From a virus (Duplodnaviria > Caudoviricetes): a stretch of DNA of 34,342 bases. The position numbers and the translations under genes are program-made. The notes under the pieces are model-generated. The model was given only the letters and a program-made list of their open reading frames with translations. It did not search any database and was not told where the DNA came from. This document shows positions 3,102-33,532 of the stretch, in pieces (positions within the stretch are counted from its first letter, which is position 1; each line of letters opens with the position of its first letter). The stretch lies in IMG/VR virus record IMGVR_UViG_3300042480_000339, positions 1-34,342 of that record; one strand, given 5' to 3'.

Positions 3102-4451
3102 TTATGAGTTAATAGTTACGAAACCAACAACAGGGCCTGTTGTGCGTGATGCTGCTGTAGCATTGTAGTTGCCCATCTCATGCACCTTGATGTCGAGGTA
3201 CTGTGTAGCCTTGACATAGATCGTATCTGTGTCGAAGCCCTTGCTTGCGTCTTGCTTGATCGATGTTGCCATACGATCACCAAGAGTTGCAGCCTGTGTA
3301 AGGTTACCGAAGTAAGCGAACACCTGGCTGTTAGCATCTGCTGATGGCATCACGTCGACGAACTCGACAGGATAGCCGAAGAGGCGCTGACCGAATGAGC
3401 CAGCAAGTTCTGCAGCTGTTGATCCGCCTTGTGCGTATGCGAGGCGCTCTGCTGTCTCACCAAAAGCTACCTTGTTGAAGTACCACTTGGCACCTGTGAG
3501 TGCGTATGTTGGAACCTTGCGCATACCAGCAATCAGGTTGCCCATCGTTACCTCAGCGAAGGTGTTGCCAGCGCATACCTGTGCTGATCCGAGGTAGCCC
3601 TTGTGTGTGTCGTTTGTCCATGTTCCGCCGCCATCCTCGAGAACCTTGCGGAGCTTGCCAGCAAGACCGAGAACACCGCCGTATGTAGACGTACCATCAC
3701 CCAAGAACCCAGCTTCGTCTTCCTTCTTTGCGAATTGGCGTGCTACCGATTCAGCAAAGCGAAGGCCAAGATTTTGTGTGCTGTTCATTACAAGTTCTTC
3801 AGAGAGAACAGCGAGGGCATACATCTTCTTGGCATTGAGCGTGACAGCGTCGAATGTCATGTCAGATGATGACAGTGTGCCTTGCTCAGATCCCCAGTAT
3901 GCCGTCACGTCATCGCCTGTGCGGAAGATGCGGATTGATTCCGATCCCATAGGCTCAACACGTGTGTTGCGACGGAATGATCCGTATGTGTCCTTCAGGT
4001 TGACGATAAGGCTTGATGTCTCCGTAGGAACGAAGATACCGCCTGTGGCGTCGTTGCCTTGTGTGTGTGACTTGTACTCAACACCTGTTACTTCGGCGTA
4101 CTTTTGACGTGCTGTCTCATTAGCAAGACCACCTACAAACAAGCCTGTTACATATGCTTTGTACTCAGCATCTGGCATGTTGGCCTTTGCTGATGATTCG
4201 CCGACCTTGATGTCGTTTGACTTTGGCAGCTTGTTTACTGCTGTCTTCACTTCTGTCTGGCGTTGTGCGTTCTTGGCCTTGATAGCTTCGAACGACTTTA
4301 CTTCGTTAGCCTGCTCATTGAGCGCGTCGATTTCAGCGTTCAATGTCTGTGCAGACTTTACTTCGTCCATCGTTGGCTCTGTCTTAGCAAGGAGCGTTTC
4401 AAGCTCTGCAGACTTCGCGCTGATGGCGTCGTTGATCTGTTGCAAATTCAT
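3102..4451 (-). CDS. Major capsid protein, HK97 fold, with N-terminal coiled-coil delta (scaffold) domain
   Basis: Helical N-terminus; GGIFVP, VTLNAKKMYALAVLSEELV, KEDEAGFLGDG, RLFGYPV and YFGNL motifs; follows the protease. Confidence 0.95.
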   Translation of the reverse strand: MNLQQINDAISAKSAELETLLAKTEPTMDEVKSAQTLNAEIDALNEQANEVKSFEAIKAKNAQRQTEVKTAVNKLPKSNDIKVGESSAKANMPDAEYKAYVTGLFVGGLANETARQKYAEVTGVEYKSHTQGNDATGGIFVPTETSSLIVNLKDTYGSFRRNTRVEPMGSESIRIFRTGDDVTAYWGSEQGTLSSSDMTFDAVTLNAKKMYALAVLSEELVMNSTQNLGLRFAESVARQFAKKEDEAGFLGDGTSTYGGVLGLAGKLRKVLEDGGGTWTNDTHKGYLGSAQVCAGNTFAEVTMGNLIAGMRKVPTYALTGAKWYFNKVAFGETAERLAYAQGGSTAAELAGSFGQRLFGYPVEFVDVMPSADANSQVFAYFGNLTQAATLGDRMATSIKQDASKGFDTDTIYVKATQYLDIKVHEMGNYNATAASRTTGPVVGFVTINS

Positions 4452-5197
4452 GATTGTTTCCTCTTGTTTACTAATGCCCGCAGGGCTTCCATTTCCATGG
4501 CAGCCTTTGCGGAAACCGGTTGTGCCGCCTCGATAAGCATTTTGATATTGCCCACCGCTGCAGTCAGTGTGTCCATCAATTCGGTCAAGCGTGCCACGTT
4601 AGCCGACGATAGCGTGCGCCCTTCCTTTTGCCTAATTTCTGCGCGTTCGTTCAACCTTGTGATGATACGGCCGACGTCAGCTCCAACGTCTTCCAAGTCA
4701 TCGTTAAGTCCCTTAGCGCTAATAAGTGCCGTCTGTGAGTTAGCACCGAAGAGCACGGGTGACCACTCGTAAAGTTTGCCCTTTACCAGTTCACGTGCTC
4801 CATCCTGTGCAAATGTTTCTTCGACTACAGAATAACCGATCGAGAACTCGTCGATGATACCTTCCTTGATGTCGGAGTAGGTCTCACGTCCTCGCTGTGT
4901 GTTCATGTTGAACTGGCCCCTGATATACAGGCCACCAAGGTCTTTCAAGCTATCAGGCAGCATGGCGTCGCCTGGCATTAGCTCACGTGCTTCTAATGTC
5001 TTCGCCACTGGTGTCTTCCAGTCGTGAGCCCAGACGCCCTTTGGCAGTTTGGTCTTCAGCGAGTCGTCGAAGAAACCGTATTTCACACGGTCGCCGTAGC
5101 TGTCGACGTTGTTAAACACGGAGACAATGGCCTCGATTACGCCACTGTCACCTTCTGCCTTAGCTTGAAATTCGAAAGTCTTACGTTCAATTTTCAT
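4448..5197 (-). CDS. HK97-family prohead protease
   Basis: SVFNNVDSYGD, WAHDW, FSIGY (catalytic Ser) and LYEWSPVLFGAN motifs. Confidence 0.95.
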   Translation of the reverse strand: MKIERKTFEFQAKAEGDSGVIEAIVSVFNNVDSYGDRVKYGFFDDSLKTKLPKGVWAHDWKTPVAKTLEARELMPGDAMLPDSLKDLGGLYIRGQFNMNTQRGRETYSDIKEGIIDEFSIGYSVVEETFAQDGARELVKGKLYEWSPVLFGANSQTALISAKGLNDDLEDVGADVGRIITRLNERAEIRQKEGRTLSSANVARLTELMDTLTAAVGNIKMLIEAAQPVSAKAAMEMEALRALVNKRKQS

Positions 5198-5226
5198 GGT
5201 GTGTTCCCCATACCATACGAATTTGG

Positions 5227-5253
5227 GTTATGCTGTTGTTTAATTATCCACAA
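5227..5253 (-). promoter_or_regulatory. Perfect DnaA box plus AGCATAAC element upstream of the protease-capsid genes
   Basis: TTATCCACA at 5244-5252; the minus strand reads TTGTGGATAA-N9-AGCATAAC immediately after the portal stop codon. Confidence 0.7.
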
Positions 5254-5254
5254 G

Positions 5255-7180
5255 TTAGGCTTGCCTTGCACGTGTGAAGCATCGGCAGTTGACGGCATTC
5301 CATGCCGATAGTCCATCGCCTGCTGGATAAGGTGTTGTTTCACCACCTACCAAGAAAAGCCCAGGGCCTGCCTTTTCCCCTTCGAGTTGGTCATGCGCTG
5401 CCATATGCTCGTCACGTGCCCCTGACAAGGCCACCCACGACCGTCTGATCCCGCCCAATTCATCCCAGACGGATTTCTGCACAGTGCCTGTGGTGGCTGT
5501 GGCTGTAGTCCTTGCGATGGCGTTAGCACGTGATACCTTGAGGTCGGAAAATTTTTCCTTCAAAAGCCTTGCCAGTTCCTCCTCGCCTACGCCAGCGTTC
5601 TGTCGTAGTAGAGTCTGTATGTCGGTTCTGATGGTTCCTACGGAATCCGCTATCTTATTTGCGCTCTCTGTTATACCAGCCTCACGGCCCCGTGTGAACT
5701 CGCCCTCAGCGTCGACCTCTTCTTGTGCCAATGCCAGCACGATCTCTGTAAGCTCGGTTCGGCTGTCCTCGGTTCCGTCAACGAAGTTCTTTTCCCACAC
5801 GTCGAGGCTGAACTGGTCGTCAATCTTGGTTTCAATGCGGAGCGCCTTAACGTCAGCCGTGATGGTATCGTAGAGATCATCCAGCACACGCCCCCACTCT
5901 TTGGCGATGTTTTCGGATTGCTTGTTCAGCAGATCGTCGTAGGCTTTGGCGTAGACCTGTGAGTCGGGATGCTTTAGCCAGGCTTTCGTTTCGGGGCCTA
6001 TGGTAACGCTGTAGTTTTTGTGAAAGTATTTGTCCGAAGACACGCCACCTCCGAGGCTGAGTGTCTCCGGTGAATCGTCGATATTATCAGCATCGCTGTC
6101 GTTGTCTGTAGATACCGCCTCCGTTGCCATAGCCTCGCCAGCAAGGGCCTGAACCGTAGATAGGTCGAAACCTAACTGCACGCCATATTCTGGGATTGCC
6201 AGCTGTGCGTTGATCTGATCTGCGATCATATTCCAGAACGGAACACGCACCATATTGGTAAAGTCTTTGCTTGCCTGTTCAAAATTGCTGTAGGTAGCAG
6301 ACGACAAGCCCATGTGCGTCCCTGCAATAATCGGGTGCACCTTATAAGCACCACAGATGCGCGTCTCGTACTGTCCAAACGTGTCTGATAAGCCCAGTTC
6401 ATTCCAATCAAGAGCAAGGCGTTTTACATCCCTAACTCCCCAGACGATACCCACGCTACCACGACGTTCGCCTCCGTACTTGCGAGAAAAAGATTTTTGT
6501 GCAAGTGAAGCCTGTTCGCTGCTGAGTTCCTCATCGTACACTAGCAACGTTTTGGGCATGGCGTCGTTCTTGTGGATGTTAAACACAGTCGATGTGGCTT
6601 CGTTGTAGCCCTCGATAGACTGCGCTGCTAACTCAACAGGGCTGCCACCCCCAAGGGTTTTCTCGGGGTCGTACCAAAATCCTTGAATGTGTACCACGTC
6701 TTCCTTGCGTACGGTGTAGGCTACCTGTCCATCGTAATACAGGTAATGTTCAACATCACCATACCCATCGTTGACAGGGGCGAAGTTTTTATCTGAATAC
6801 CAGCGCATGCCGATGATAGCACCCGAGGCGTTGCGTAGCTTGTAACCGTAGGCGTTGCCACCGATGCACAGGATCGTCATGATCTCACCAAAGGTCACAC
6901 GCCATTGGTTACGTGTTAGCATCCCCACGATAGGCGATTCGAAGTCGTAACCATTGGGCGTAATCACACCTATCTGCGCTTCCGGCATCATCAGCGAATA
7001 GGTCAGAGTGCACGCCACAGCCACGGGGTTCGCCTTCCACATCTGGTAAGCACCACGCCAGTTGACGATAGGTGTGAAGTTATGCTTGTTCCACAACTCC
7101 GTCACTGGTATAGGGAGGTCGTTCTGTGCGACCTCGCCAGTAGGGGAGATATACTGCTTAATCCGAGTTAGTATGCTCAT
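5255..7180 (-). CDS. Portal protein fused to a Mu gpF/SPP1 gp7-like head morphogenesis domain
   Basis: The N-terminal ~345 aa carry HK97-type portal motifs (NPVAVAC, GNAY, DVVHI, SPVE, ATYSNFEQA). An acidic linker follows, then RANAIART...W...AR.EH..H...YPA......NAVNCRC. Confidence 0.9.
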   Translation of the reverse strand: MSILTRIKQYISPTGEVAQNDLPIPVTELWNKHNFTPIVNWRGAYQMWKANPVAVACTLTYSLMMPEAQIGVITPNGYDFESPIVGMLTRNQWRVTFGEIMTILCIGGNAYGYKLRNASGAIIGMRWYSDKNFAPVNDGYGDVEHYLYYDGQVAYTVRKEDVVHIQGFWYDPEKTLGGGSPVELAAQSIEGYNEATSTVFNIHKNDAMPKTLLVYDEELSSEQASLAQKSFSRKYGGERRGSVGIVWGVRDVKRLALDWNELGLSDTFGQYETRICGAYKVHPIIAGTHMGLSSATYSNFEQASKDFTNMVRVPFWNMIADQINAQLAIPEYGVQLGFDLSTVQALAGEAMATEAVSTDNDSDADNIDDSPETLSLGGGVSSDKYFHKNYSVTIGPETKAWLKHPDSQVYAKAYDDLLNKQSENIAKEWGRVLDDLYDTITADVKALRIETKIDDQFSLDVWEKNFVDGTEDSRTELTEIVLALAQEEVDAEGEFTRGREAGITESANKIADSVGTIRTDIQTLLRQNAGVGEEELARLLKEKFSDLKVSRANAIARTTATATTGTVQKSVWDELGGIRRSWVALSGARDEHMAAHDQLEGEKAGPGLFLVGGETTPYPAGDGLSAWNAVNCRCFTRARQA

Positions 7181-8283
7181 AGGTCCAAAGTGTTTTGTTT
7201 GTTCTTGAAAGCGTGCTCAATCCTTGCACGTGCTATGTCTACATATTCGGGTGTCATGTCTATACCGATAAACTGGAACCCTTCTAAGATGGCAGCCTTG
7301 CCTGTGGAACCACTGCCCATGAAAGGGTCGAGAACTATGCCATCCGGTGGTGTTACCAGCCTGCACAGGTAGCGCATAAGCTCGGTAGGTTTGACGGTGG
7401 GGTGGTGGTTGGCAACAGGCTTACGTTGCACATCTGGAGTGTTGCCCATGTTTTGTCTTGACCATTCGTCTTGTGCATATGTACCTGTATGCTTTGTAGG
7501 CATCCCCTCGCACCCCTCGTCCCTATCTCGCTTGGAAGCTTTGGCGCAGTAGAAGTACCTTGCTGACTCCCCCATGCCGAAGACGGCCTCATCACTCCCG
7601 TCGTGGATAAGGTTGGCGGGGAAGCGGCCTTGTCCAGATTCGCATGGAACGCGAGACCCGTCCACATTAACGCCACCCGTGCCCCATTGCAGTACGTTCG
7701 CCGCTACCGTTCCCGTGAATGGCTTGCGTGCCACAGTAATAGGCTCCAGCGCAGGTTTGAGCGCAGTGCCCCAGCCTTGCCATTGTTTGGCGGCGGGAGT
7801 GGCGGGGGCGGGCAGCGGGCATTTGCATGATGTGCCATTGCGCGATTTGTTGCAAACACCACAAATAACAGCGGCGCAACCATCCGATAAGGCGTTTCTT
7901 TGCTTGGTTTTGCGCTTCTGATGTGGGTCGTCCTCACGTTCCGCCCCCGCGGCCTTATCTATCGCCTTGCTTATATCGTGCGACTTCGGGAAACCGCTGC
8001 CATACACCCACGCGATCATGTCCCGTATCTCAAACCCTGCATCCTCGATACGCACTGCCATACGGTGCTGTGTTCGTGTTCCCGCGAATGCGAGCAGATG
8101 CCCGCCAGGTTTAAGCACACGGAGGCATTCACGCCAGATCTCCTCGCTTGGAACGTCATAGTCCCACTTCTTGCCCATGAACGCCAGACCATAGGGCGGG
8201 TCGGTGACGATAGCGTCCACGCTGTTGTCTGGCATTGTAGCCAGAACATCTAAACAGTTGCCCGTGTGGAGTTCAAAACTCAT
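7177..8283 (-). CDS. N6-adenine/N4-cytosine DNA methyltransferase (beta class)
   Basis: N-terminal DPPY catalytic motif, HPTVKP, and C-terminal LDPFMGSGSTG SAM-binding motif. Confidence 0.93.
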   Translation of the reverse strand: MSFELHTGNCLDVLATMPDNSVDAIVTDPPYGLAFMGKKWDYDVPSEEIWRECLRVLKPGGHLLAFAGTRTQHRMAVRIEDAGFEIRDMIAWVYGSGFPKSHDISKAIDKAAGAEREDDPHQKRKTKQRNALSDGCAAVICGVCNKSRNGTSCKCPLPAPATPAAKQWQGWGTALKPALEPITVARKPFTGTVAANVLQWGTGGVNVDGSRVPCESGQGRFPANLIHDGSDEAVFGMGESARYFYCAKASKRDRDEGCEGMPTKHTGTYAQDEWSRQNMGNTPDVQRKPVANHHPTVKPTELMRYLCRLVTPPDGIVLDPFMGSGSTGKAAILEGFQFIGIDMTPEYVDIARARIEHAFKNKQNTLDL

Positions 8284-9452
8284 AGAAAAACAACCCCTGC
8301 ACCTTGCGACTTAACAGCCGCCATCTCAGCGTAAACGAGAGCATCCACCATGTCGTCGTGGTTGCCCTCTGGGAAAGAAAGTAGTTCCTGTTCGAATGAA
8401 GGTTCCAGCCCACGTACATGTGTTACCAGTAGCTGCTCATACCTTGCCAGCAAAGCGTGGAAACGTGTTACCTTGTCACGGTCTGGTTTAACAGCCTTGA
8501 CAGGTAGGGAGGTTTTGCGGAGTAGTTCCTGCACTACTGCCACCTGATACTGGACGGCCTCGATGTTGATACGTGATGGGTTCCATTTTGCCGCCAGGCT
8601 TTGTACGCCTTGGACGACTTCATGAAACCCCACCTTGCCCCTCCACATGTCCAGCACGTACCTACGCCCCGAGTCCTTGTCGTAGCCCACAACAGCGATG
8701 GCGGTGTAGTCAGCCGTGTCTGATTTGGAGATAGCAAGGTCAACCCCCATACCAATCTTCAGATCTCTAGGCACCTGGTCGCTGTTGACGTAGGTTATCA
8801 TCTCACGTTTAACCAGAGCACCCTGCACGTCTACAAACTCAGCCAAGTATTCCTGATTGAACACCACGGTAGGCAGTTCACGCTGTGCAGCGTCGATTTC
8901 ATCCTGTGCGATGTAGGGATTCACGCTCGTAGGCATACGGAAGGACGCATACGTCTCGTCCAGCCGTGCACGTTCGTACATCGCGTGGAAATCGTTGCGT
9001 CCCTTTGGCGTGCTGAAGAAATACCCGTCACCCTTGTAATCCGTCAACGTCGGACGGATCGCTTCGTTCCATGCGTCCATGAAGTTCCTGACCATCGCCA
9101 CCTCATCACAGACGACCCGTGCATACTTACGGCCCCGAACACTATCGAAAGCGTCTAATGACCAACAATCGATGATACCACCGGTCTCGATGGTAAGGCG
9201 TTTTTCCTGTTCACTTACACCCGTGATTATAGGATGCAACGTTGTCTTGAGGGCCTTCCAAACATCAGATAGCATCTTGTAAGTGGGGGCGAAGTAAGCC
9301 GCCGGTTTGCCCATTATAGCCGATTCGATAAGCAGGGCTTCCGCCATCACGGTCTTGCCAAACCTACGACCACAGGCGACCGTGTTGAATCGCCTCCGGT
9401 TACGGAAGATTAGCTTTTGACCGTCATGTAGCTGTGCGTCAATCGTAATCAC
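8280..9452 (-). CDS. terL: Terminase large subunit
   Basis: Walker A GRRFGKT, Walker B VVCDE, STP coupling motif; RNase H-type nuclease motifs GVDLA and HDDMVDAL. Confidence 0.95.
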   Translation of the reverse strand: MITIDAQLHDGQKLIFRNRRRFNTVACGRRFGKTVMAEALLIESAIMGKPAAYFAPTYKMLSDVWKALKTTLHPIITGVSEQEKRLTIETGGIIDCWSLDAFDSVRGRKYARVVCDEVAMVRNFMDAWNEAIRPTLTDYKGDGYFFSTPKGRNDFHAMYERARLDETYASFRMPTSVNPYIAQDEIDAAQRELPTVVFNQEYLAEFVDVQGALVKREMITYVNSDQVPRDLKIGMGVDLAISKSDTADYTAIAVVGYDKDSGRRYVLDMWRGKVGFHEVVQGVQSLAAKWNPSRINIEAVQYQVAVVQELLRKTSLPVKAVKPDRDKVTRFHALLARYEQLLVTHVRGLEPSFEQELLSFPEGNHDDMVDALVYAEMAAVKSQGAGVVFL

Positions 9453-9838
9453 AACGAAGCGTCCTTTGGCCCTATGGCGATAATCTCGGCATCCTCGATG
9501 TGCTTGGGTTCCTCATGTGTCGGGGCAAGGACAATACGTATATCTGTCTTGCCTGAAACCTCGGTAGCCGCCTTGTCTGTCTGTGCGAGGTGTTGTTTGC
9601 CCAGCCAGATCAGCATCGTGTTATCACCTGACAGGGCTTTGTCGATCTGTGTCTGTGCCAGCTGGAACCTGACGTCGTTACGTTCGTTCTCGATCATGAG
9701 GGCATAGTCAGCCTTCAACTCACTGACAGGCACGTCACGGTTCAACAGAACCGAGCACCACCGTGACAGGGCAGTCCAGCCCATCATGGCGCGTGCACGA
9801 CGTTTCAGTTCGGCCTCTTGTGAAGGTGTTAGGTTCAT
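9449..9838 (-). CDS. Putative terminase small subunit
   Basis: Overlaps the terL start; KALSGDNTMLIWLGKQHL motif is typical of TerS-position proteins. Confidence 0.7.
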   Translation of the reverse strand: MNLTPSQEAELKRRARAMMGWTALSRWCSVLLNRDVPVSELKADYALMIENERNDVRFQLAQTQIDKALSGDNTMLIWLGKQHLAQTDKAATEVSGKTDIRIVLAPTHEEPKHIEDAEIIAIGPKDASL

Positions 9839-9842
9839 TCAG

Positions 9843-9881
9843 CTATTAAGTTATGCTTAATAGTTGGCCACTTATCCACAA
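9843..9881 (-). promoter_or_regulatory. Perfect DnaA box, AGCATAAC element and palindrome upstream of TerS
   Basis: TTATCCACA at 9872-9880; minus strand TTGTGGATAA-N14-AGCATAAC; CTATTAAG-N5-CTTAATAG inverted repeat at 9843-9863. Confidence 0.7.
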
Positions 9882-9883
9882 CA

Positions 9884-10183
9884 TCACAGGCCCCGCATAA
9901 GGCTAGCATAATTGATCTGCTGTATGTCAGTCACCACCGACCTCACGTCGCTGTACATAAGGTAGGCATCCTCGATGCTGGCGATGCCGTGCAACACCGT
10001 AGCATGGTGCTTTTGGCTGTGCTTGGCTATAGAGGTCAGCGTCCAGCCGTAGTGCTTGCTCAGGATATACCACGTGATAGAACGCGCACGTACCACGTCA
10101 GCACGTCGTGTGGCACTGTAGGCATCCTCGAGTGTGACACCGCACAATGTGCATACGTCAGATAGGATCAACTCGTATAACAT
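9884..10183 (-). CDS. Stand-alone DnaA C-terminal (domain IV) helix-turn-helix protein
   Basis: ILSDVCTLCGVTLEDAYSATRRADVVRARSITWYI...TLTSIAKHSQKHHATVLHG matches the DnaA domain IV basic loop and DHTTVLHA recognition helix. No AAA+ domain. Confidence 0.85.
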   Translation of the reverse strand: MLYELILSDVCTLCGVTLEDAYSATRRADVVRARSITWYILSKHYGWTLTSIAKHSQKHHATVLHGIASIEDAYLMYSDVRSVVTDIQQINYASLMRGL

Positions 10184-10191
10184 AAAACCCC

Positions 10192-10623
10192 CTAATTCTT
10201 TTTGACGAACTCGATGGCATCGTCAACAGATCTGACGATCCCATAGGGTACGCCATAACGCAGACAACAGTCCGAGAACCTGTCTTGCGTTTCCGACACC
10301 CTACCTTTGGCAGCCTTAACTTCTAACATCCATGCGCGGCCGTCACGATAGACAGCCAGGTCAGCATGGCCTGATGTGGCGTTAATGTTTACCACACGAT
10401 ACGAGGACAGCCGTGTGCCATGTTCCAGCTGTTGCGTTGAACTGTTGACACGGACAACCATATACCCTAACATGCACAGTTGGTCAGCTATGGCCTTTTG
10501 CACTACGCGCTCCGGTATAACACCCGAGGCTTTCTTGGCAGCCTTGGCACGCTTGGCAGCCTTCAGTTCATCCAGCAGCCTATGCTCGCTCGCATCCCAG
10601 TCCAGATCGTCTATCTCTCTCAT
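10192..10623 (-). CDS. VRR-NUC domain nuclease (candidate Holliday-junction resolvase)
   Basis: E..VQKAI...L...GY, GHADL, LEVK..KGRVSETQ..F and VRSVDDA motifs. Start re-called to ATG 10623 (ATGA overlap). Confidence 0.88.
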   Translation of the reverse strand: MREIDDLDWDASEHRLLDELKAAKRAKAAKKASGVIPERVVQKAIADQLCMLGYMVVRVNSSTQQLEHGTRLSSYRVVNINATSGHADLAVYRDGRAWMLEVKAAKGRVSETQDRFSDCCLRYGVPYGIVRSVDDAIEFVKKN

Positions 10624-11294
10624 TGCATCCCTTGGTTGTTGTAACAGTGCCACAGTCCGTCGGTACCTTCGAACCATGTGTATCCGTCGACGTTATGCTC
10701 ATACATCAGGGACAGCATGGTCTTGCCAGCCTTGACCCGTTGGCGCTCGATCATGGCCGATTCCAGCACCTCATGGCGTGAGATAAGTCTGGCCTCGGTA
10801 GCGTTGAATTGGGATAGGTCGGGGCCGTCATCGGGTAGGACGCCATCCCACGCGTCGCCTGGGGGGTGTCCAAATCGTTTATAGAACTCCCAATCCTTAG
10901 CAAGCACGTCGTACAAATACGTACCTCTGGTTGCCTCGACGACGGCATCTATCGTTTCCGGTTGCAAGGTGCCGCCTAACGTAGCAACCGATGCCAAATC
11001 GTCGCAACTGTAACGATACCATTGACTTACGAGAAAATCCAGCATCTCCTCGGTTGCTAGGTTGCAGGGTGAAACTATAGTTTTCACTCTATACTTTTCA
11101 TTTATTTCTCCTTCTACTTCTAATATATTCTTACAACCTAGCAACCTAGAGAAGTATATATATATAAATAAAGGGGTTAGGTCGGTTGCCACCTGTTCGT
11201 CCGAACTGACAACCTTCTGGCAATCCGGCAACCTAGGTGTGGCAACTGGACTCAGAAGCCCCATCTCTACCAATTCGTCACGTGTGAATAGCAT
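10620..11294 (-). CDS. Hypothetical protein; 5' half overlaps the putative origin
   Basis: 224-aa ORF coupled at both ends (TAATG and ATGA); no recognised family. Confidence 0.6.
   Translation of the reverse strand: MLFTRDELVEMGLLSPVATPRLPDCQKVVSSDEQVATDLTPLFIYIYFSRLLGCKNILEVEGEINEKYRVKTIVSPCNLATEEMLDFLVSQWYRYSCDDLASVATLGGTLQPETIDAVVEATRGTYLYDVLAKDWEFYKRFGHPPGDAWDGVLPDDGPDLSQFNATEARLISRHEVLESAMIERQRVKAGKTMLSLMYEHNVDGYTWFEGTDGLWHCYNNQGMQ
10929..11247. other. Putative replication origin (GCAACC/GGTTGC iterons around an AT-rich core)
   Basis: About 10 GGTTGC/GCAACC-type hexamers in both orientations; 14/15 inverted repeat 11052-11066 vs 11132-11146; TATATATATATAAATAAA tract near 11155-11172; directly downstream of the primase-helicase. 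Confidence 0.7.
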
Positions 11295-14877: not shown

Positions 14878-14912
14878 AAAAATTAAGGGCCGGCCTTCCA
14901 CAACCGGCCCTT
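14878..14912 (-). terminator. Probable intrinsic terminator/attenuator
   Basis: 9-bp stem AAGGGCCGG/CCGGCCCTT (14885-14912) followed on the minus strand by AATTTTT. Confidence 0.6.
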
Positions 14913-21617: not shown

Positions 21618-23362
21618 TACGTGAGTTCCTTGGAATCGCTAGGCTTAAACAGAAAGTATTTAATCGTCGACGTGCCTGCAACCCAGTTCTGCGTTATCGA
21701 CACCGGAAGGGCATAATCCCACGCAAGGCTTGTGAAGGTACCTACCACGTTATCTGTTAATGTGTGACGCCCTGGCAATGCACTAGGCAGTAGTGCCGTG
21801 CTTCGTGTGTAGTCCCACTCCGTTTCACAGGTGGCGTTGTCAGGATCTGCGAAGACGTGCAAGTGCAGCAAACAAAGTGCAGCAGGCATCGACGTTTGAG
21901 CCTGCATAGCAGCCAGCTGGACACGGTATTTTTCTTGCGATTCATCGTCTTGATATTCTGGCTTATCCGATGCAGGCGAAGAAATCTTCAACCATTGCGT
22001 CGACTTGGGGCCGTACCAGTATTTCGTGGTTTCGTGCACCTTGATTAATGACCCACCCGATTCCCTAAACAGCACCTGATTTGTCTGCTTATATAGGTCG
22101 GTTCGTCCTTCAACGTCGTCGTATTCCCGCATGTAAACAGGCACGTTGTGGATAATCGGTTCTATGTTCATAGAACGAGATGAACGCGCCCCCTGCTGCA
22201 GGCGCACTATTTCGGTGGCGTCTTCCTGCTGTGTTGTTTCGTAGCGACTTTCGACTTTGGCGATGTTATCACCACGCTTGACAATCGATGGCAGCTGCAG
22301 TGAGTTGTTTAGTGACAAGGTTGCATCGGTCGTGTCTACATTGTTGGCATATCCCTTGGACGATGCTATGCGTTTAACTGTCCAGTTGGCAATAATCTTA
22401 TCGTCAAAGGTAAAGTATTCGAAGGAATACGAGGCTTTCACCCCGAACGTTTCGCACAGATCCCTGATGATGTCGTATGCCGTAACATCACGGCGTCCCC
22501 ATGCGAAGTTGTCACCGACGGAATAAAGCCCACCAATGGTAGATGTGGCTGTTGAGTCTTTGTAGATGTTGCTTGTTAGGTATGCCGTCGACGCTGTTAC
22601 GGCCGTCGATGGCGTCCTCGGGTCGGTGTCTATGTTCGTCGTATACAGTTCGATAGCGGCCGTGATTAGACTATCGAGCGTGTTGAGGTCAAACAATCCT
22701 ACGGCCGTTGCTGATGTCCTAGCGTAATTCGTTTTTATGTGCGTGCCCAGTGCCGTTCGTAAGTGAGTCAGCACCTGAGCGAAGGTATCAGCTAAGACTA
22801 AACCAACACTGATATGCTTTTGATTCCTACCGACTAGGCTTCTAAGTAGGAACTGGAAAACTGCAAACTCTGGGGGACGATGGGCGCCTATTTTGCCGTT
22901 GAAGATCTGGTATCCTGTCAGTGTCTTAGCAGCATGGAATATGTAATCGACAAGTTGAACGTTGTAGGCATAGCTGCCATCGTCCAAGGGCTCCAATTCG
23001 ACAGCTTCGACGTTATCCTCGACACCTGCAAACTCGACTGTGTAGGTCGCCCCGTTCGTGCCACGGTCTGACCACAGGATCCACAGGTTGCACTTGTCCG
23101 GGGCAGACGGGTCTACGCTGTCCTCGATGTAATCTTGCACTGCTGCGGGCAACATCGACCATGCCAGTTTGAAGTTCAGAGTTTGGGGCTTTACAAGCCC
23201 GTAGGGGAGCGAATCAAATTCGGCCGTCTGTTCACCCAGTTCAAGCAAACAAACGTCACCTAGCGTGGTTATGGTGCCACCGAGGGCCGTGTCATACGGC
23301 AGCAGTTCCAGCCGTACGTTCCAGCCATTAGGCAGCTTCCGTTGTATTCTGTAGTGCGGCAT
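21617..23362 (-). CDS. Putative tail tip/hub protein
   Basis: 581 aa, second gene after the tape measure; positional inference. Confidence 0.6.
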   Translation of the reverse strand: MPHYRIQRKLPNGWNVRLELLPYDTALGGTITTLGDVCLLELGEQTAEFDSLPYGLVKPQTLNFKLAWSMLPAAVQDYIEDSVDPSAPDKCNLWILWSDRGTNGATYTVEFAGVEDNVEAVELEPLDDGSYAYNVQLVDYIFHAAKTLTGYQIFNGKIGAHRPPEFAVFQFLLRSLVGRNQKHISVGLVLADTFAQVLTHLRTALGTHIKTNYARTSATAVGLFDLNTLDSLITAAIELYTTNIDTDPRTPSTAVTASTAYLTSNIYKDSTATSTIGGLYSVGDNFAWGRRDVTAYDIIRDLCETFGVKASYSFEYFTFDDKIIANWTVKRIASSKGYANNVDTTDATLSLNNSLQLPSIVKRGDNIAKVESRYETTQQEDATEIVRLQQGARSSRSMNIEPIIHNVPVYMREYDDVEGRTDLYKQTNQVLFRESGGSLIKVHETTKYWYGPKSTQWLKISSPASDKPEYQDDESQEKYRVQLAAMQAQTSMPAALCLLHLHVFADPDNATCETEWDYTRSTALLPSALPGRHTLTDNVVGTFTSLAWDYALPVSITQNWVAGTSTIKYFLFKPSDSKELT

Positions 23363-27394: not shown

Positions 27395-27723
27395 TATCGT
27401 TTCCCGATTCGGCGTTCGTGCCTGTTCTTAGCTATCTGTGAATCGGTCGGCTGATCCCATGAGTGAGCCCGCACAAGTGCGACCCTTCGCAGGAACTCCG
27501 ACGCTGTGAGGGAAACTACCACTTCGTCGGGTGTCATTTTCCACAACTTGCCTATTTCGATGGCCATGAGAACGTCGTGCTCATGTGCTGGCACTACGTC
27601 GGTTCCTGTGATGCGCTTGGGGTAAGTTTTGCCTGTGTCGTCAACAGGCGTTTTCGTCAGCACGTCGTAGGCTTCGTATATCTCAGCGACTGCTGCGACC
27701 TCAGAGTTTAGCGACGCCTCGAA
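27394..27723 (-). CDS. Tail assembly chaperone C-terminal extension (gpGT-like), probably reached by +1 frameshift
   Basis: Frame is open from 27729 to the stop overlapping the tape measure ATG; overlaps the 3' end of 27701..28237 at TGG TTT CGA. Confidence 0.7.
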   Translation of the reverse strand, partial: FEASLNSEVAAVAEIYEAYDVLTKTPVDDTGKTYPKRITGTDVVPAHEHDVLMAIEIGKLWKMTPDEVVVSLTASEFLRRVALVRAHSWDQPTDSQIAKNRHERRIGKR

Positions 27724-28893: not shown

Positions 28894-29646
28894 TTATTTG
28901 TCCTTTGTTACGTAATACATGAATGATCCTGAGTCGCGGTGTATCATCTGCGTCCAGTATACGAGCTGGTCGTCATCGGTACAGTCCGCGATCTCACGTG
29001 CGAGCCCCTTCACATTACGCCTCACCTTGGCCATCATCGAGTCGGCGTCGACTTCATAGCCTACGTGGTGCACTAACAGTGAACAGGTCTCTAATGTTAG
29101 CCCCTGCTGTTCTATTGACCAGGTGATCTGTTCGTGTGCAGCACCTTTGAAAGCAAATGCTTTGTTGTTGCGAAACACCCTTGTCTGTGGATGATGGTAT
29201 CGCATAACATTGCTATTGCCTTCGTGCTTCGGTTGTACTCCAACACATCCGCACACAAGCCCGCCAACACCGGCGGGGTATATCGTCAGGTCGTCAAACC
29301 AACTATGCTGGTGAGTCAGTAAACGGTCGTCGGCGTCTATCCACATGACCCACCCTCGAGAACAGAGACCAATGCAAAGGTTGCGAAGATTGGCGAAGTG
29401 CAAATCTTGCCACTGTGTTTCGTAATAACGAACAATGCTGCCGTTGTTTAACGTTATCTTTTTACGTTCTACAACCTCTGAATTGTCGCCCTGTTCATTC
29501 CAAAGCACGACCACCTCGCAGCCACTCGGTAGCGTTGAGATCATCTGCATCACGTGGTGTGCTTCGCTCTTGTGTGCTATGCAGGCGAAGCTGACGTCGA
29601 CGTGTTTAGGCTCGGAGCTTTGGTTCGTTGCCAACATAAAGAACAA
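28894..29646 (-). CDS. GT2 glycosyltransferase (SunS/TPR-GT-like catalytic domain) in the tail operon
   Basis: W..LHFANLRN, WVMWIDADDRL (DxD), RVFRN...FKGAAHEQI, VHHVGY, KVRRN. True start may be ATG 29637. Confidence 0.88.
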   Translation of the reverse strand: MFFMLATNQSSEPKHVDVSFACIAHKSEAHHVMQMISTLPSGCEVVVLWNEQGDNSEVVERKKITLNNGSIVRYYETQWQDLHFANLRNLCIGLCSRGWVMWIDADDRLLTHQHSWFDDLTIYPAGVGGLVCGCVGVQPKHEGNSNVMRYHHPQTRVFRNNKAFAFKGAAHEQITWSIEQQGLTLETCSLLVHHVGYEVDADSMMAKVRRNVKGLAREIADCTDDDQLVYWTQMIHRDSGSFMYYVTKDK

Positions 29647-31809: not shown

Positions 31810-32092
31810 CTAATTGGTTTCCCTTCGCTGTTTTGTAGGATTGCCAGGCCATTTCTTCAAACAACCTTGTCCGTTCTTCGTTATGGTCTTGCCCCGTGGC
31901 AGCCTCAAAAGCGTGGTACCATTCGTGCAAGAACGTCTTGAGTTGAGTTTCTATGGTCGTAAGCCGGCCGTCTACGTGGGTTGCTATGCGGATGGTGTGT
32001 TTTTCAGCGTCGCACTCGCCATAGGCACCGCGCATCTTGCACATCCGCACACGCCATGTGTGGCCTCCGAGTTTGAACGACGTGGGGATCAT
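31802..32092 (-). CDS. Small HEXXH zinc-metallopeptidase-like protein
   Basis: YGECD....IRI...TFLHEWYHAF...E motif. Confidence 0.75.
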   Translation of the reverse strand: MIPTSFKLGGHTWRVRMCKMRGAYGECDAEKHTIRIATHVDGRLTTIETQLKTFLHEWYHAFEAATGQDHNEERTRLFEEMAWQSYKTAKGNQLDV

Positions 32093-33159
32093 CTCACTTC
32101 TCCGTCAATTATCATCTTGTTATAAACTGTGAAGCGTCCCGAGTCCTGCAGATCAACAATAGCGAACCCGTGATTCCAGCCGTTACGGGCCGCGTAGAAC
32201 GGGTTTAAGTCGCACAGGCACCCAACAGACCACCCTGCTATGAAAGACCCGTCTAAGGGCCTGCGAATCATGTCCGTGGACGTTCTATGCACGTGCCCCA
32301 CTAGTATATTGTCGAGGGCTTTCATTCGGTAGTTTCGCCCTGGGGTTACACCACCACCGCCGAACCATTCGTGCCCGTGGTCTATCCACAACTGCCCAGC
32401 CTGCATCTTGCCCCGTTTTGATACCCACTCGATACCGAGCTCACGTAGTTTTAGGAACTCTTCGAGGTGGACGGTGCCGATAAGTTCCTTCGCCTTACGT
32501 GCAAGGTATCTCTGGTAACGCTCTTCGTGGTTGCCTTCTCTGTACACGATGCGTACCTTATCACCAAAGAAAGCCCGCAGGTGTTTCAGCATCGCGATCG
32601 CAACATCCAATTCCCACTTCCACGACCGTTTTCCTTCAACCTTCTCATGATCTGACAGGTTGTAGACGTCCAACATATCGCCGTTTAATACGAGCGTGTC
32701 TATGCCCTCATCACGGAGTGTTTCTATTGCCGTCCAATAAGCGCCGTAGAAATTACCGGCTGAGTCTTTGCGTAGATCATGGAAAGGCCAGTGAGCATCC
32801 GAGATAATGCCAATCTTACCAGGTCTAATTTCGCATATTTCGTCGTCACGTAATTCGCCTGCTATGGCATCGTCGAATGGAACCGCCCCGTATTCGGTAG
32901 CTGGTGCTTCGGCTGTTCGTAGTTTCTTAAGTGCTTCGGCCTCGCGTTCATGGACGCTGTTTAGTGCTGCCTTTGCCTTTTGAATTTTCGTTTTTATTAC
33001 CTCGGGGTTCTCAGCAGCGAAGGCGTGGGCGTTCTTGATTTCAGCGCCGCGTATTATGCCACCCTTTATTTGGGATTTTTTCATACGAGCCGCGCGGTAA
33101 TCTTCGATAATTTCCCGCACGGCATCGTACTCTACATCGGACAGGCGTAAACGCGGCAT
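32089..33159 (-). CDS. Calcineurin-like metallophosphoesterase
   Basis: ISDAH, NGDMLD, EGNHE, HGH and GHVH motifs; ~110-aa helical N-terminal extension. Confidence 0.9.
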   Translation of the reverse strand: MPRLRLSDVEYDAVREIIEDYRAARMKKSQIKGGIIRGAEIKNAHAFAAENPEVIKTKIQKAKAALNSVHEREAEALKKLRTAEAPATEYGAVPFDDAIAGELRDDEICEIRPGKIGIISDAHWPFHDLRKDSAGNFYGAYWTAIETLRDEGIDTLVLNGDMLDVYNLSDHEKVEGKRSWKWELDVAIAMLKHLRAFFGDKVRIVYREGNHEERYQRYLARKAKELIGTVHLEEFLKLRELGIEWVSKRGKMQAGQLWIDHGHEWFGGGGVTPGRNYRMKALDNILVGHVHRTSTDMIRRPLDGSFIAGWSVGCLCDLNPFYAARNGWNHGFAIVDLQDSGRFTVYNKMIIDGEVR

Positions 33160-33175: not shown

Positions 33176-33532
33176 TTACTTGGAATCTTCAGCGAAAAAA
33201 CCGATGATGAAGATAGCAACCGCAGTGATCGCTTCCTGTGGGATAGTGTAACCAGTAACCGAGTTCACCACTAAGGCAATAGCAGACACGACGCCTGCAA
33301 CGGTTGTTTTCCAGTTCTTCATGAGAAGACCTCGGGAGATAGTGAATAAGTGAGGTATCAGTCGCAACATAATCCACGCATTGTGGATTTTATCAACAAT
33401 GTTAGTGCTCGGCTGTTCTTCATCATCGACGACAGGCAACGGCTGAACAGGTCGTACTTTCTGGAATACGTTCGGCCGTTCTATACGCCTCGGAAGTACC
33501 TTCGTAATTATCGGGTCTTCACTTAGTGACAC
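33176..33532 (-). CDS. Holin-like membrane protein
   Basis: C-terminal MKNWKTTVAG module with two hydrophobic segments; internal ATG at 33322. Confidence 0.6.
   Translation of the reverse strand: MSLSEDPIITKVLPRRIERPNVFQKVRPVQPLPVVDDEEQPSTNIVDKIHNAWIMLRLIPHLFTISRGLLMKNWKTTVAGVVSAIALVVNSVTGYTIPQEAITAVAIFIIGFFAEDSK

What the first reader, a model, noticed from the sequence alone, without database searches (positions are those of the whole stretch)
5227..10183. Phage mini-DnaA (domain IV only) with perfect DnaA boxes at the entries to the packaging and capsid genes: candidate late-gene switch
Seen: the last early gene (9884-10183) encodes only a DnaA DNA-binding domain, keeping the basic-loop arginines (TRRADVVRAR) and recognition helix (HHATVLHG vs DHTTVLHA). 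Three nt past its stop lies a consensus box TTATCCACA (9872-9880), upstream of TerS. A second box in the same orientation lies 2 nt past the portal stop (5244-5252), upstream of protease-capsid. Both extend to the 10-mer TTGTGGATAA and are followed by AGCATAAC (spacers 14 and 9 nt). A given 10-mer is expected about 0.07 times here under a uniform base model, and intergenic DNA is scarce. Established: DnaA domain IV binds TTATCCACA, DnaA also regulates transcription, and lambda Q-type late regulators occupy this position. Inference: the phage uses a DnaA-derived HTH as late regulator or packaging-site factor, possibly competing with host DnaA, linking virion synthesis to host replication state or blocking host oriC.
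Basis: partly seen in the sequence, partly recalled or inferred. Interest (0 to 1): 0.85.

Follow-up and report, generated by a model that had tools for sequence, protein, structure and literature searches.

The report
Phage mini-DnaA late-gene activator
An uncultured phage carries a small protein built like the DNA-reading end of the bacterial replication starter DnaA and puts DnaA's binding word at one fixed distance before predicted promoters of its packaging and capsid genes; in related phages the protein's predicted reading helix and the word differ in step, so the protein likely switches these late genes on.

Summary
Observation confirmed, with corrections. The 99-aa ORF is a stand-alone DnaA domain IV (Pfam 1e-14; model matches 1J1V/3PVP, TM 0.80). 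TTGTGGATAA lies before terS and before protease-capsid and is kept in all 32 near and 11 sister loci. AGCATAAC is not the partner element: it is lost in the sister lineage. The real partner is a TAnnTT(T/C)G-like word exactly 18 nt downstream, resembling the Bacteroidota sigma-A -7 box. Placed at -12..-5, it puts the predicted transcript start on the terS ATG in 8 of 17 sites and the box at -40..-31. Three further terminase lineages keep the gene in the same place, but with another recognition helix and another box at the same two positions. Candidate hosts (likely Kapabacteria) have an invariant DnaA helix. Best reading (0.7): a phage late-gene activator overlapping the upstream promoter element, like Mu C or Ltr in geometry and like GTA GafY in fold. 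Binding, activation and host are untested. Pelagiphage homologues lack a conserved box. This scan reported the same kind of system on other genomes before (five notes); my literature searches found it only in gene transfer agents.

The parts
9884..10183 (-). Stand-alone DnaA domain IV gene (99 aa), last gene before terS; predicted late activator
   Evidence: Pfam PF08299 1e-14; AF2 pLDDT 95.9; Foldseek 3pvp and 1j1v TM 0.80, rmsd 1.4-1.5; orthologue at the same place in 4 other genomes
9872..9881 (-). Box 1, TTGTGGATAA (DnaA box), predicted position -40..-31 of the terS promoter
   Evidence: kept in 32 of 32 near and 11 of 11 sister loci
9846..9853 (-). Predicted -7 promoter element TAACTTAA, 18 nt after box 1; predicted start 3 nt before the terS ATG (near-leaderless)
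   Evidence: likeness to TAnnTTTG at -12..-5 (PMC9723704)
9449..9838 (-). Putative terminase small subunit, first gene after box 1
   Evidence: position before terL; no family hit
8280..9452 (-). Terminase large subunit
   Evidence: Terminase_6N/6C
7177..8283 (-). N6/N4 DNA methyltransferase, in a variable slot
   Evidence: PF01555 1.5e-36; no tblastn hit in the 4 related genomes
5255..7180 (-). Portal protein with a C-terminal head-morphogenesis-like part
   Evidence: PF04860; phrog_2468
5244..5253 (-). Box 2, TTGTGGATAA, predicted -40..-31 of the protease-capsid promoter
   Evidence: kept in 20 of 20 near and 4 of 4 sister loci that reach it
5218..5225 (-). Predicted -7 element CAAATTCG, 18 nt after box 2; predicted 16-nt leader with a Shine-Dalgarno-like word
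4448..5197 (-). Prohead protease
   Evidence: Peptidase_S78
3102..4451 (-). Major capsid protein
   Evidence: Phage_capsid
33366..33399 (-). Site 3: TTGTTGATAA, 18 nt, TATGTT; inside ORF 33176-33532, ahead of the phosphoesterase, CHAP and neck genes
   Evidence: perfect box with an unrelated spacer in sister genomes G001 and G002; no lineage-type box found there in lineages C, D, F
27513..27546 (-). Site 4 (doubtful): TTGTGGAAAA, 18 nt, TAGTTT; inside the ORF before the tape measure gene
   Evidence: kept in G001 and G002; but it encodes a conserved peptide motif and does not change with the helix in lineage C
22147..22155 (-). Third exact TTATCCACA, antisense orientation, inside a tail ORF, no phased element; probably incidental

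Best explanation
The 99-aa DnaA-domain-IV protein likely binds the 10-mer that lies 18 nt upstream of a predicted Bacteroidota-type -7 promoter element, and so likely activates transcription of the terminase-portal and protease-capsid genes by host RNA polymerase. Shown: the fold, the two boxes, the fixed 18-nt spacing, their conservation, and the joint difference of helix and box between four terminase lineages. [quoted passage not shown] The host is likely a Kapabacteria-type member of Bacteroidota.
For: Fold and residues. R26 (DnaA R399) and H60 are at least 90% conserved in 125 homologues. Footprint: the box is kept while the spacer diverges in the sister lineage. Complete sister genome G001 has exactly 4 phased sites, all sense and at the same four places; reversed-pattern control 0. 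In the window 4 of 6 sense and 0 of 3 antisense near-matches carry the phased word (background 0.006 per site). Covariation: helix KHH[ATS]TVLHG goes with TTGTGGATAA, RERQPVMR with TGGTGCAAAA, WRLATVHRG with ATATCAYGWT, and WNRITVTMG/QSRLTVRYG with a TGTYRR-type word. The terS-site and protease-site boxes agree within a lineage at 10, 10, 10, 8 and 6 of 10 positions, against 1-7 between lineages. In 5 whole genomes a foreign lineage's box gave no phased sense site. Over 169 loci, 94 of the 96 with a helix and full flank had their own box type, 0 had another's, and 2 had none. Predicted +1 is the A of the terS ATG in 8 of 17 sites and within 2 nt in 11. Candidate-host DnaA helix is GGRDHTTVLHS in 29 of 29, so it does not explain the three non-canonical boxes if the hosts are of this group. 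The window's two other predicted regulators had no tblastn hit in the 4 related genomes. Precedent: GafY, a stand-alone domain IV, activates the GTA cluster and binds RpoD (PMC9632790, PMC11150451).
Against: No binding, transcript or host data exist. Only four independent helix/box pairs, and the box patterns were written after seeing the sequences, so only the empty off-diagonal is a test. Lineage D agrees at only 6 of 10 and also 6 of 10 with F. Lineage G (L209, L216) has the gene but no shared phased word was found. Site 4 stays A-like in lineage C. No close relative with the gene cleanly lost was found, so the loss test is missing. The window's helix departs from DnaA at two places (DHTTVLH to HHATVLH). 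Four pelagiphages with a domain IV protein share no box before terS (1 of 4). In a collection-wide sample only 4 of 120 loci with the exact motif carried the gene, all from this group. The host rests on one binned 4.8-kb contig and one partly related contig.
Confidence: 0.7

Rival explanations
1. Host DnaA reads the canonical boxes of this lineage (activating or repressing the late promoters), and the phage protein only competes or does something else.
For: The boxes are perfect DnaA boxes and candidate-host DnaA is canonical. Host DnaA acts on lambda transcription (title of a reference listed in PMC8477408).
Against: Three related lineages have non-canonical boxes at the same two places together with other helices. 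In 201 genomes of the candidate host order, box-to-promoter-word spacing shows no peak at 18 (6 of 79 matches; 4.6 expected if uniform).
Confidence: 0.1
2. The protein binds the same boxes but represses: it covers the upstream promoter element and delays or limits late transcription.
For: The box overlaps the place where sigma region 4 would bind. Sequence alone cannot give the sign of the effect.
Against: The gene is the last of the replication block, where Ltr activators lie (PMC3753634, abstract). The promoters have a -7-like word but no shared upstream consensus apart from the box, as at Mu late promoters that need activator C (PMC2582627, abstract). The one tested relative, GafY, activates.
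Confidence: 0.08
3. The protein is a packaging or origin factor that marks a pac site or a replication start near terS.
For: Box 1 lies directly before terS, where pac sites often lie (recalled). Pelagiphage homologues were proposed to act in replication initiation (PMC8477408).
Against: The boxes are single and dispersed, not an array. The second site and the fixed 18-nt phasing to a promoter-like word, with +1 on the terS ATG, are not needed for packaging. The protein has no AAA+ domain, and the phage has its own primase-helicase.
Confidence: 0.05
4. The main role is against host replication (blocking oriC boxes, or HdaB-like titration of an Hda protein), and the phage boxes are secondary.
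For: This lineage keeps R399- and L422-equivalent residues (roles from PMC7049699) and would be predicted to recognise the host's own box word.
Against: Orthologues in lineages C to H have helices unlike DnaA yet keep the gene in the same place. PMC9632790 reassigns HdaB/GafY from replication control to GTA activation.
Confidence: 0.05
5. The boxes are read by another phage factor, or the two sites were homogenised without function.
For: Covariation is a correlation over four lineages. ORF 10620-11294 has no family or atlas hit.
Against: The lineage with the most DnaA-like helix is the one with the exact DnaA box. Spacers diverge while boxes do not. The window's other predicted regulators were not found in relatives.
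Confidence: 0.02

Closest known systems
GafY (= HdaB, CCNA_01111) of Caulobacter crescentus and the N-terminal domain of GafA of Rhodobacter capsulatus (gene transfer agent activators)
   Same: Stand-alone DnaA domain IV fold; acts at a promoter upstream of terminase to switch on virion genes; GafY binds RpoD domains 3-4 (PMC9632790, PMC11150451, PMC9638019).
   Different: GafY is chromosomal, lacks the R399 equivalent (PMC7049699), binds an ACTATG-containing element at -123..-113, and works with IHF and the antiterminator GafZ. Here the gene is in a phage next to its first target, keeps the arginine, the site is a canonical DnaA box predicted at -40..-31, and no GafZ-like (DUF6456) hit was seen among 51 ORFs.
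DnaA domain IV on the DnaA box (E. coli 1J1V, M. tuberculosis 3PVP)
   Same: Fold (TM 0.80), basic-loop arginine, H-x-T-V-L-H helix, and the TTATCCACA word.
   Different: No domains I-III, so no ATPase or unwinding; DHTT is HHAT; single dispersed sites rather than an origin array; relatives have changed helix and word.
Ltr/RinA late activators of Gram-positive siphophages and Mu C
   Same: [quoted passage not shown] Mu C binds over the -35 region of promoters that have a -10 but no -35 (PMC2582627).
   Different: Different fold; Ltr proteins bind repeats and C binds a dyad, whereas here the site is one asymmetric 10-mer. This protein is near neutral (pI 6.95), not basic.
DnaA_C proteins of HTVC010P-type pelagiphages and Cellulophaga phi19:3-like phages
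   Same: Phage-borne PF08299 domain without AAA+ (PMC8477408).
   Different: Longer (131-177 aa), not adjacent to terS, annotated as replication initiators, and no box shared before terS in the four pelagiphages checked (1 of 4).

Membership tests
DnaA domain IV (PF08299) | Profile match above the curated cut-off | tested here: met
   54.7 bits against 31.5
DnaA domain IV (PF08299) | Fold of the DNA-binding domain | tested here: met
   pLDDT 95.9; 3pvp and 1j1v TM 0.80
DnaA domain IV (PF08299) | Box-reading residues (R399; DHTTVLH helix) | tested here: inconclusive
   R26, H60, T62, V63, L64 and H65 are kept; D is H and the first T is A. E. coli numbering is partly from PMC9638019 and PMC7049699, partly recalled.
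DnaA domain IV (PF08299) | Binds TTATCCACA | not testable with these tools
   needs EMSA or DAP-seq
DnaA initiator (TIGR00362) | AAA+ domain and full length | tested here: not met
   99 aa; 40 bits against a cut-off of 344
GafY/GafA GTA activators | Stand-alone DnaA-domain-IV protein | tested here: met
   weak hits to NCBIfam PRK06030 models far below cut-off
GafY/GafA GTA activators | Adjacent or fused GafZ-like (DUF6456) partner | tested here: not met
   no such Pfam hit among 51 window ORFs; the next gene is terS
GafY/GafA GTA activators | Loss of the R399 equivalent; far-upstream site with IHF | tested here: not met
   R26 kept; site predicted at -40..-31; IHF sites not looked for
GafY/GafA GTA activators | Contact with sigma domains 3-4 | not testable with these tools
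   needs a pull-down or two-hybrid test
Ltr/RinA late activators | [quoted passage not shown] | tested here: met
Ltr/RinA late activators | Sequence family, basic protein, repeat-type site | tested here: not met
   only DnaA_C hits; pI 6.95; one asymmetric box
Lambda Q-type antiterminators | Terminator between the late promoter and the first late genes; Q-family fold | tested here: not met
   no sense-strand terminator-like site called between the gene and terS; predicted +1 at or near the terS ATG; fold is DnaA
Bacteroidota sigma-A promoter | TAnnTTTG at -12..-5 | tested here: inconclusive
   perfect in lineages D, E, F and L184, 2 mismatches in the window; no transcript starts mapped

The most novel reading that the evidence does not exclude
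A widespread phage family of late activators was domesticated from DnaA domain IV and retunes its specificity by joint change of helix and box; it is the phage form from which GTA GafY/GafA came. In this lineage the activator reads the canonical DnaA box, so one 99-aa protein would both turn on virion genes and occupy the host's oriC and DnaA-regulated promoters, tying assembly to shutdown of host replication.
Probability: 0.2. Interest if true: 0.85.

Novelty: new variant of a known kind. Interest (0 to 1): 0.66.

Why it matters
Stand-alone DnaA domain IV proteins are common in uncultured phages: 613 clusters at 50% identity match this one (no context known for most), and 43 viral models match the fold at E up to 0.001. 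They are annotated as replication initiators. This phage group gives a compact, testable case that at least some are late-gene activators, with natural helix/box pairs that form a ready specificity-swap experiment on one of the best-studied DNA-reading domains. It also offers a true-phage counterpart of the GTA regulators GafY/GafA, and predicted promoters for phages of an uncultured Bacteroidota group.

Tried and rejected
AGCATAAC as a conserved element: rejected. HTVC010P's single perfect box before terS as an independent replicate: rejected, 1 of 4 pelagiphages. The exact bipartite motif as a collection-wide marker: 4 of 120 sampled loci carry the gene (80 with up to 10 kb flanks, 40 with less; 6 of 64 parts scanned), so the rest look like chance. 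L220's match lies inside an unrelated ORF. Search for loci of P0015: none confirmed. The broad alignment was too variable to seed a locus search. No cultured relative by capsid protein (best 23-27% identity). Complex prediction with a candidate-host sigma 3-4: no answer. Sequencing runs: no RNA holder listed. Cluster look-up of phage proteins gave no host names. G071, G086 and G100 contigs carry more distant terminases and no domain IV hit in the stretches fetched. Atlas search for ORF 10620-11294: no usable hit. Earlier-findings look-ups by sequence or place showed nothing for this phage group.
Full report
Setting. The window is a complete circular phage genome: 104-nt terminal repeat, virus record 100% complete, all called genes on the minus strand. 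The order around the finding is primase-helicase, unknown ORF, VRR-NUC nuclease, the 99-aa ORF, putative terS, terL, methyltransferase, portal, protease, capsid. No cultured relative was found by capsid protein.

The protein. It matches Bac_DnaA_C above the cut-off and solved DnaA sequences by phmmer. It folds with pLDDT 95.9 onto the DnaA DNA-binding domains 3PVP and 1J1V (TM 0.80). It has no AAA+ part. Against candidate-host DnaA, the basic-loop arginine and H-x-T-V-L-H are kept, while DHTT reads HHAT. Related short proteins are many: 613 clusters at E up to 0.001 and 43 viral models.

The boxes. Both stated boxes are real and unlikely by chance (0.066 expected per genome). They are kept in 32 of 32 near loci at terS and in 20 of 20 that reach the protease. 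A sister lineage (protein 64-66% identical in the loci) keeps them in 11 of 11 and 4 of 4, while the flanks diverge and AGCATAAC is gone. Aligning on the box shows a second word exactly 18 nt on (TAACTT, CAAATT, TATTTT, TATCTT, CAAGTT, TATATT). In the window 4 of 6 sense near-matches and 0 of 3 antisense ones have it; two of the four defined the rule, and two (33399, 27546) were found with it. Sister genomes G001 and G002 each have exactly four phased sites, sense only, at the same four places, with zero in the reversed control. Site 4 is doubtful: it encodes a conserved peptide and stays A-like in lineage C.

Promoter reading. The downstream octamer resembles the Bacteroidota sigma-A -7 box TAnnTTTG, which PMC9723704 places at -12..-5 (two passages seen). 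With that placing, +1 is the A of the terS ATG in 8 of 17 terS sites examined, within 2 nt in 11, and 3-4 nt away in two lineage A sites. In L025 the first long ORF opens at +21. The three D/E sites have a 19-20 nt leader with a Shine-Dalgarno-like word. The box then spans -40..-31. These 17 sites were picked by me as representatives, not drawn at random. No transcript data were available.

Covariation. Terminase relatives at 66-70% identity form four groups in a tree: A/B, C and D/E are each well supported, and F is a single row (L319 dropped because its motif did not match). All keep a domain IV gene just before terS. The helix and the word at both sites differ by lineage: A/B KHH[ATS]TVLHG with TTGTGGATAA; C RERQPVMR with TGGTGCAAAA; D WNRITVTMG with CTGTTAGGTT and GTGTCGGGAT; E QSRLTVRYG with ATGTTAATAT (terS site only); F WRLATVHRG with ATATCATGAT and ATATCACGTT. 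Within a lineage the two non-orthologous sites agree at 10, 10, 10, 6 and 8 of 10 positions (A, B, C, D, F); between lineages 1-7. Spacers agree at 7, 4, 9, 9 and 9 of 18, so the motif may extend in C, D and F. In five whole or near-whole genomes only the own box gave phased sense sites. Of 169 loci, 72 had none of the helices and 1 was dropped for a short flank; 94 of the other 96 had their own box type, none another's, and 2 (lineage G) none (patterns written after the fact; 49 distinct flanks; some loci are the same contig). Of 53 loci with the clade's terminase motif, 9 lack a helix: 7 are cut short, and 2 more distant ones lack both gene and box. No clean loss inside the clade was found.

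Host. One contig with domain IV gene and terL (L184) is binned in genome G011, whose proteins cluster with Bacteroidota and Candidatus Kapabacteria entries. G100 of the same family holds a contig with several structural homologues. In all, 4 of 201 genomes of the order had a terminase match. The family has a short primary sigma (open frames mostly 288-327 aa) and an invariant DnaA helix (29 of 29). This is a lead, not an assignment. In that order the DnaA box shows no preferred 18-nt spacing to the promoter word (6 of 79).

Against the reading. Nothing is measured. The covariation rests on four lineages, D is weak, G is unresolved, and site 4 does not follow. Pelagiphage homologues share no box (1 of 4), so the mechanism cannot be extended to all phage domain IV proteins. 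The sign of regulation is inferred.

Known systems. GafY of Caulobacter is homologous to DnaA domain IV and activates the GTA cluster (PMC9632790, passages). It binds at -123..-113, needs IHF, contacts RpoD 3-4 and works with antiterminator GafZ (PMC11150451, parts 1-3 of 9). GafA's N-terminal domain is DnaA-like (PMC9638019, passages). HdaB/GafY lacks R399 (PMC7049699, passages; its supplementary alignment was not seen and bears on this comparison). Ltr activators and Mu C give the same gene position or promoter geometry with other folds (PMC3753634, PMC2582627, abstracts only). PMC8477408 (passages) notes PF08299 in pelagiphages and suggests replication initiation. Four searches aimed at a phage-encoded domain IV late activator listed no such paper; the library lacks most subscription journals. 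The system works like GafY or Mu C, but it is not a member of the GafY, Ltr or Q families by the features tested.

Earlier notes of this scan describe the same kind of switch on five other genomes; look-ups by sequence and place found none for this phage group. I did not check their loci. One supplied the host-DnaA spacing test and the name HdaB.

Verdict. A real, conserved regulatory unit; best read as a DnaA-derived phage late activator (0.7); new variant of a known kind; interest 0.66.

Noticed in passing
window 7177-8283; L046 11889-12944; L188 11167-11179: The slot between terL and portal holds an N6/N4 methyltransferase here, a different methyltransferase-like ORF in the sister genome, and nothing in L188.
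   Followed up: no
window 28894-29646: Glycosyltransferase-like ORF (SunS family 1.7e-7, phrog_13126) inside the tail module, kept in lineages B, D, F; possibly modifies virion proteins.
   Followed up: partly
window 32089-33159: Metallophosphoesterase in the late region, kept in all four related genomes.
   Followed up: no
window 5255-7180; L046 12928-15555: Portal carries a C-terminal head-morphogenesis-like part and varies from 641 to 875 aa by an internal insert.
   Followed up: no
window 9845-9865: 8-bp inverted repeat CTATTAAG/CTTAATAG overlapping the predicted -7 element; present in lineage A only.
   Followed up: partly
L025 1170-1230; L270 7109-10000: An extra gene is inserted between the box promoter and the terminase genes in some isolates.
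   Followed up: no
L186, L188, L285, L300 (lineage C): The terS box and promoter lie inside the 3' end of the domain IV gene, whose frame runs on into terS.
   Followed up: partly
L209 7933-8348; L216 465-900: More distant phages with a domain IV gene (helix RTRSNVYDS) near terL; TGTCAC repeats follow, but no shared phased word was found.
   Followed up: partly
P0007, P0008: Proteins of 673 and 994 aa with 5 and 14 matched domain IV-like stretches: tandem arrays of this domain.
   Followed up: no
L327-L330 (G011, G088, G108, G073): A host DnaA box conserved 24 nt before TATTTTTG in four related genomes; a candidate DnaA-regulated host promoter.
   Followed up: no
L055 667-675: HTVC010P's only perfect DnaA box lies before its terminase genes but is absent at that place in three relatives, one having a one-mismatch form.
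   Followed up: yes
window 14885-14912: Strong terminator-like hairpin (11 pairs) in the early region, with TTGTGGAAG partly in its loop.
   Followed up: no
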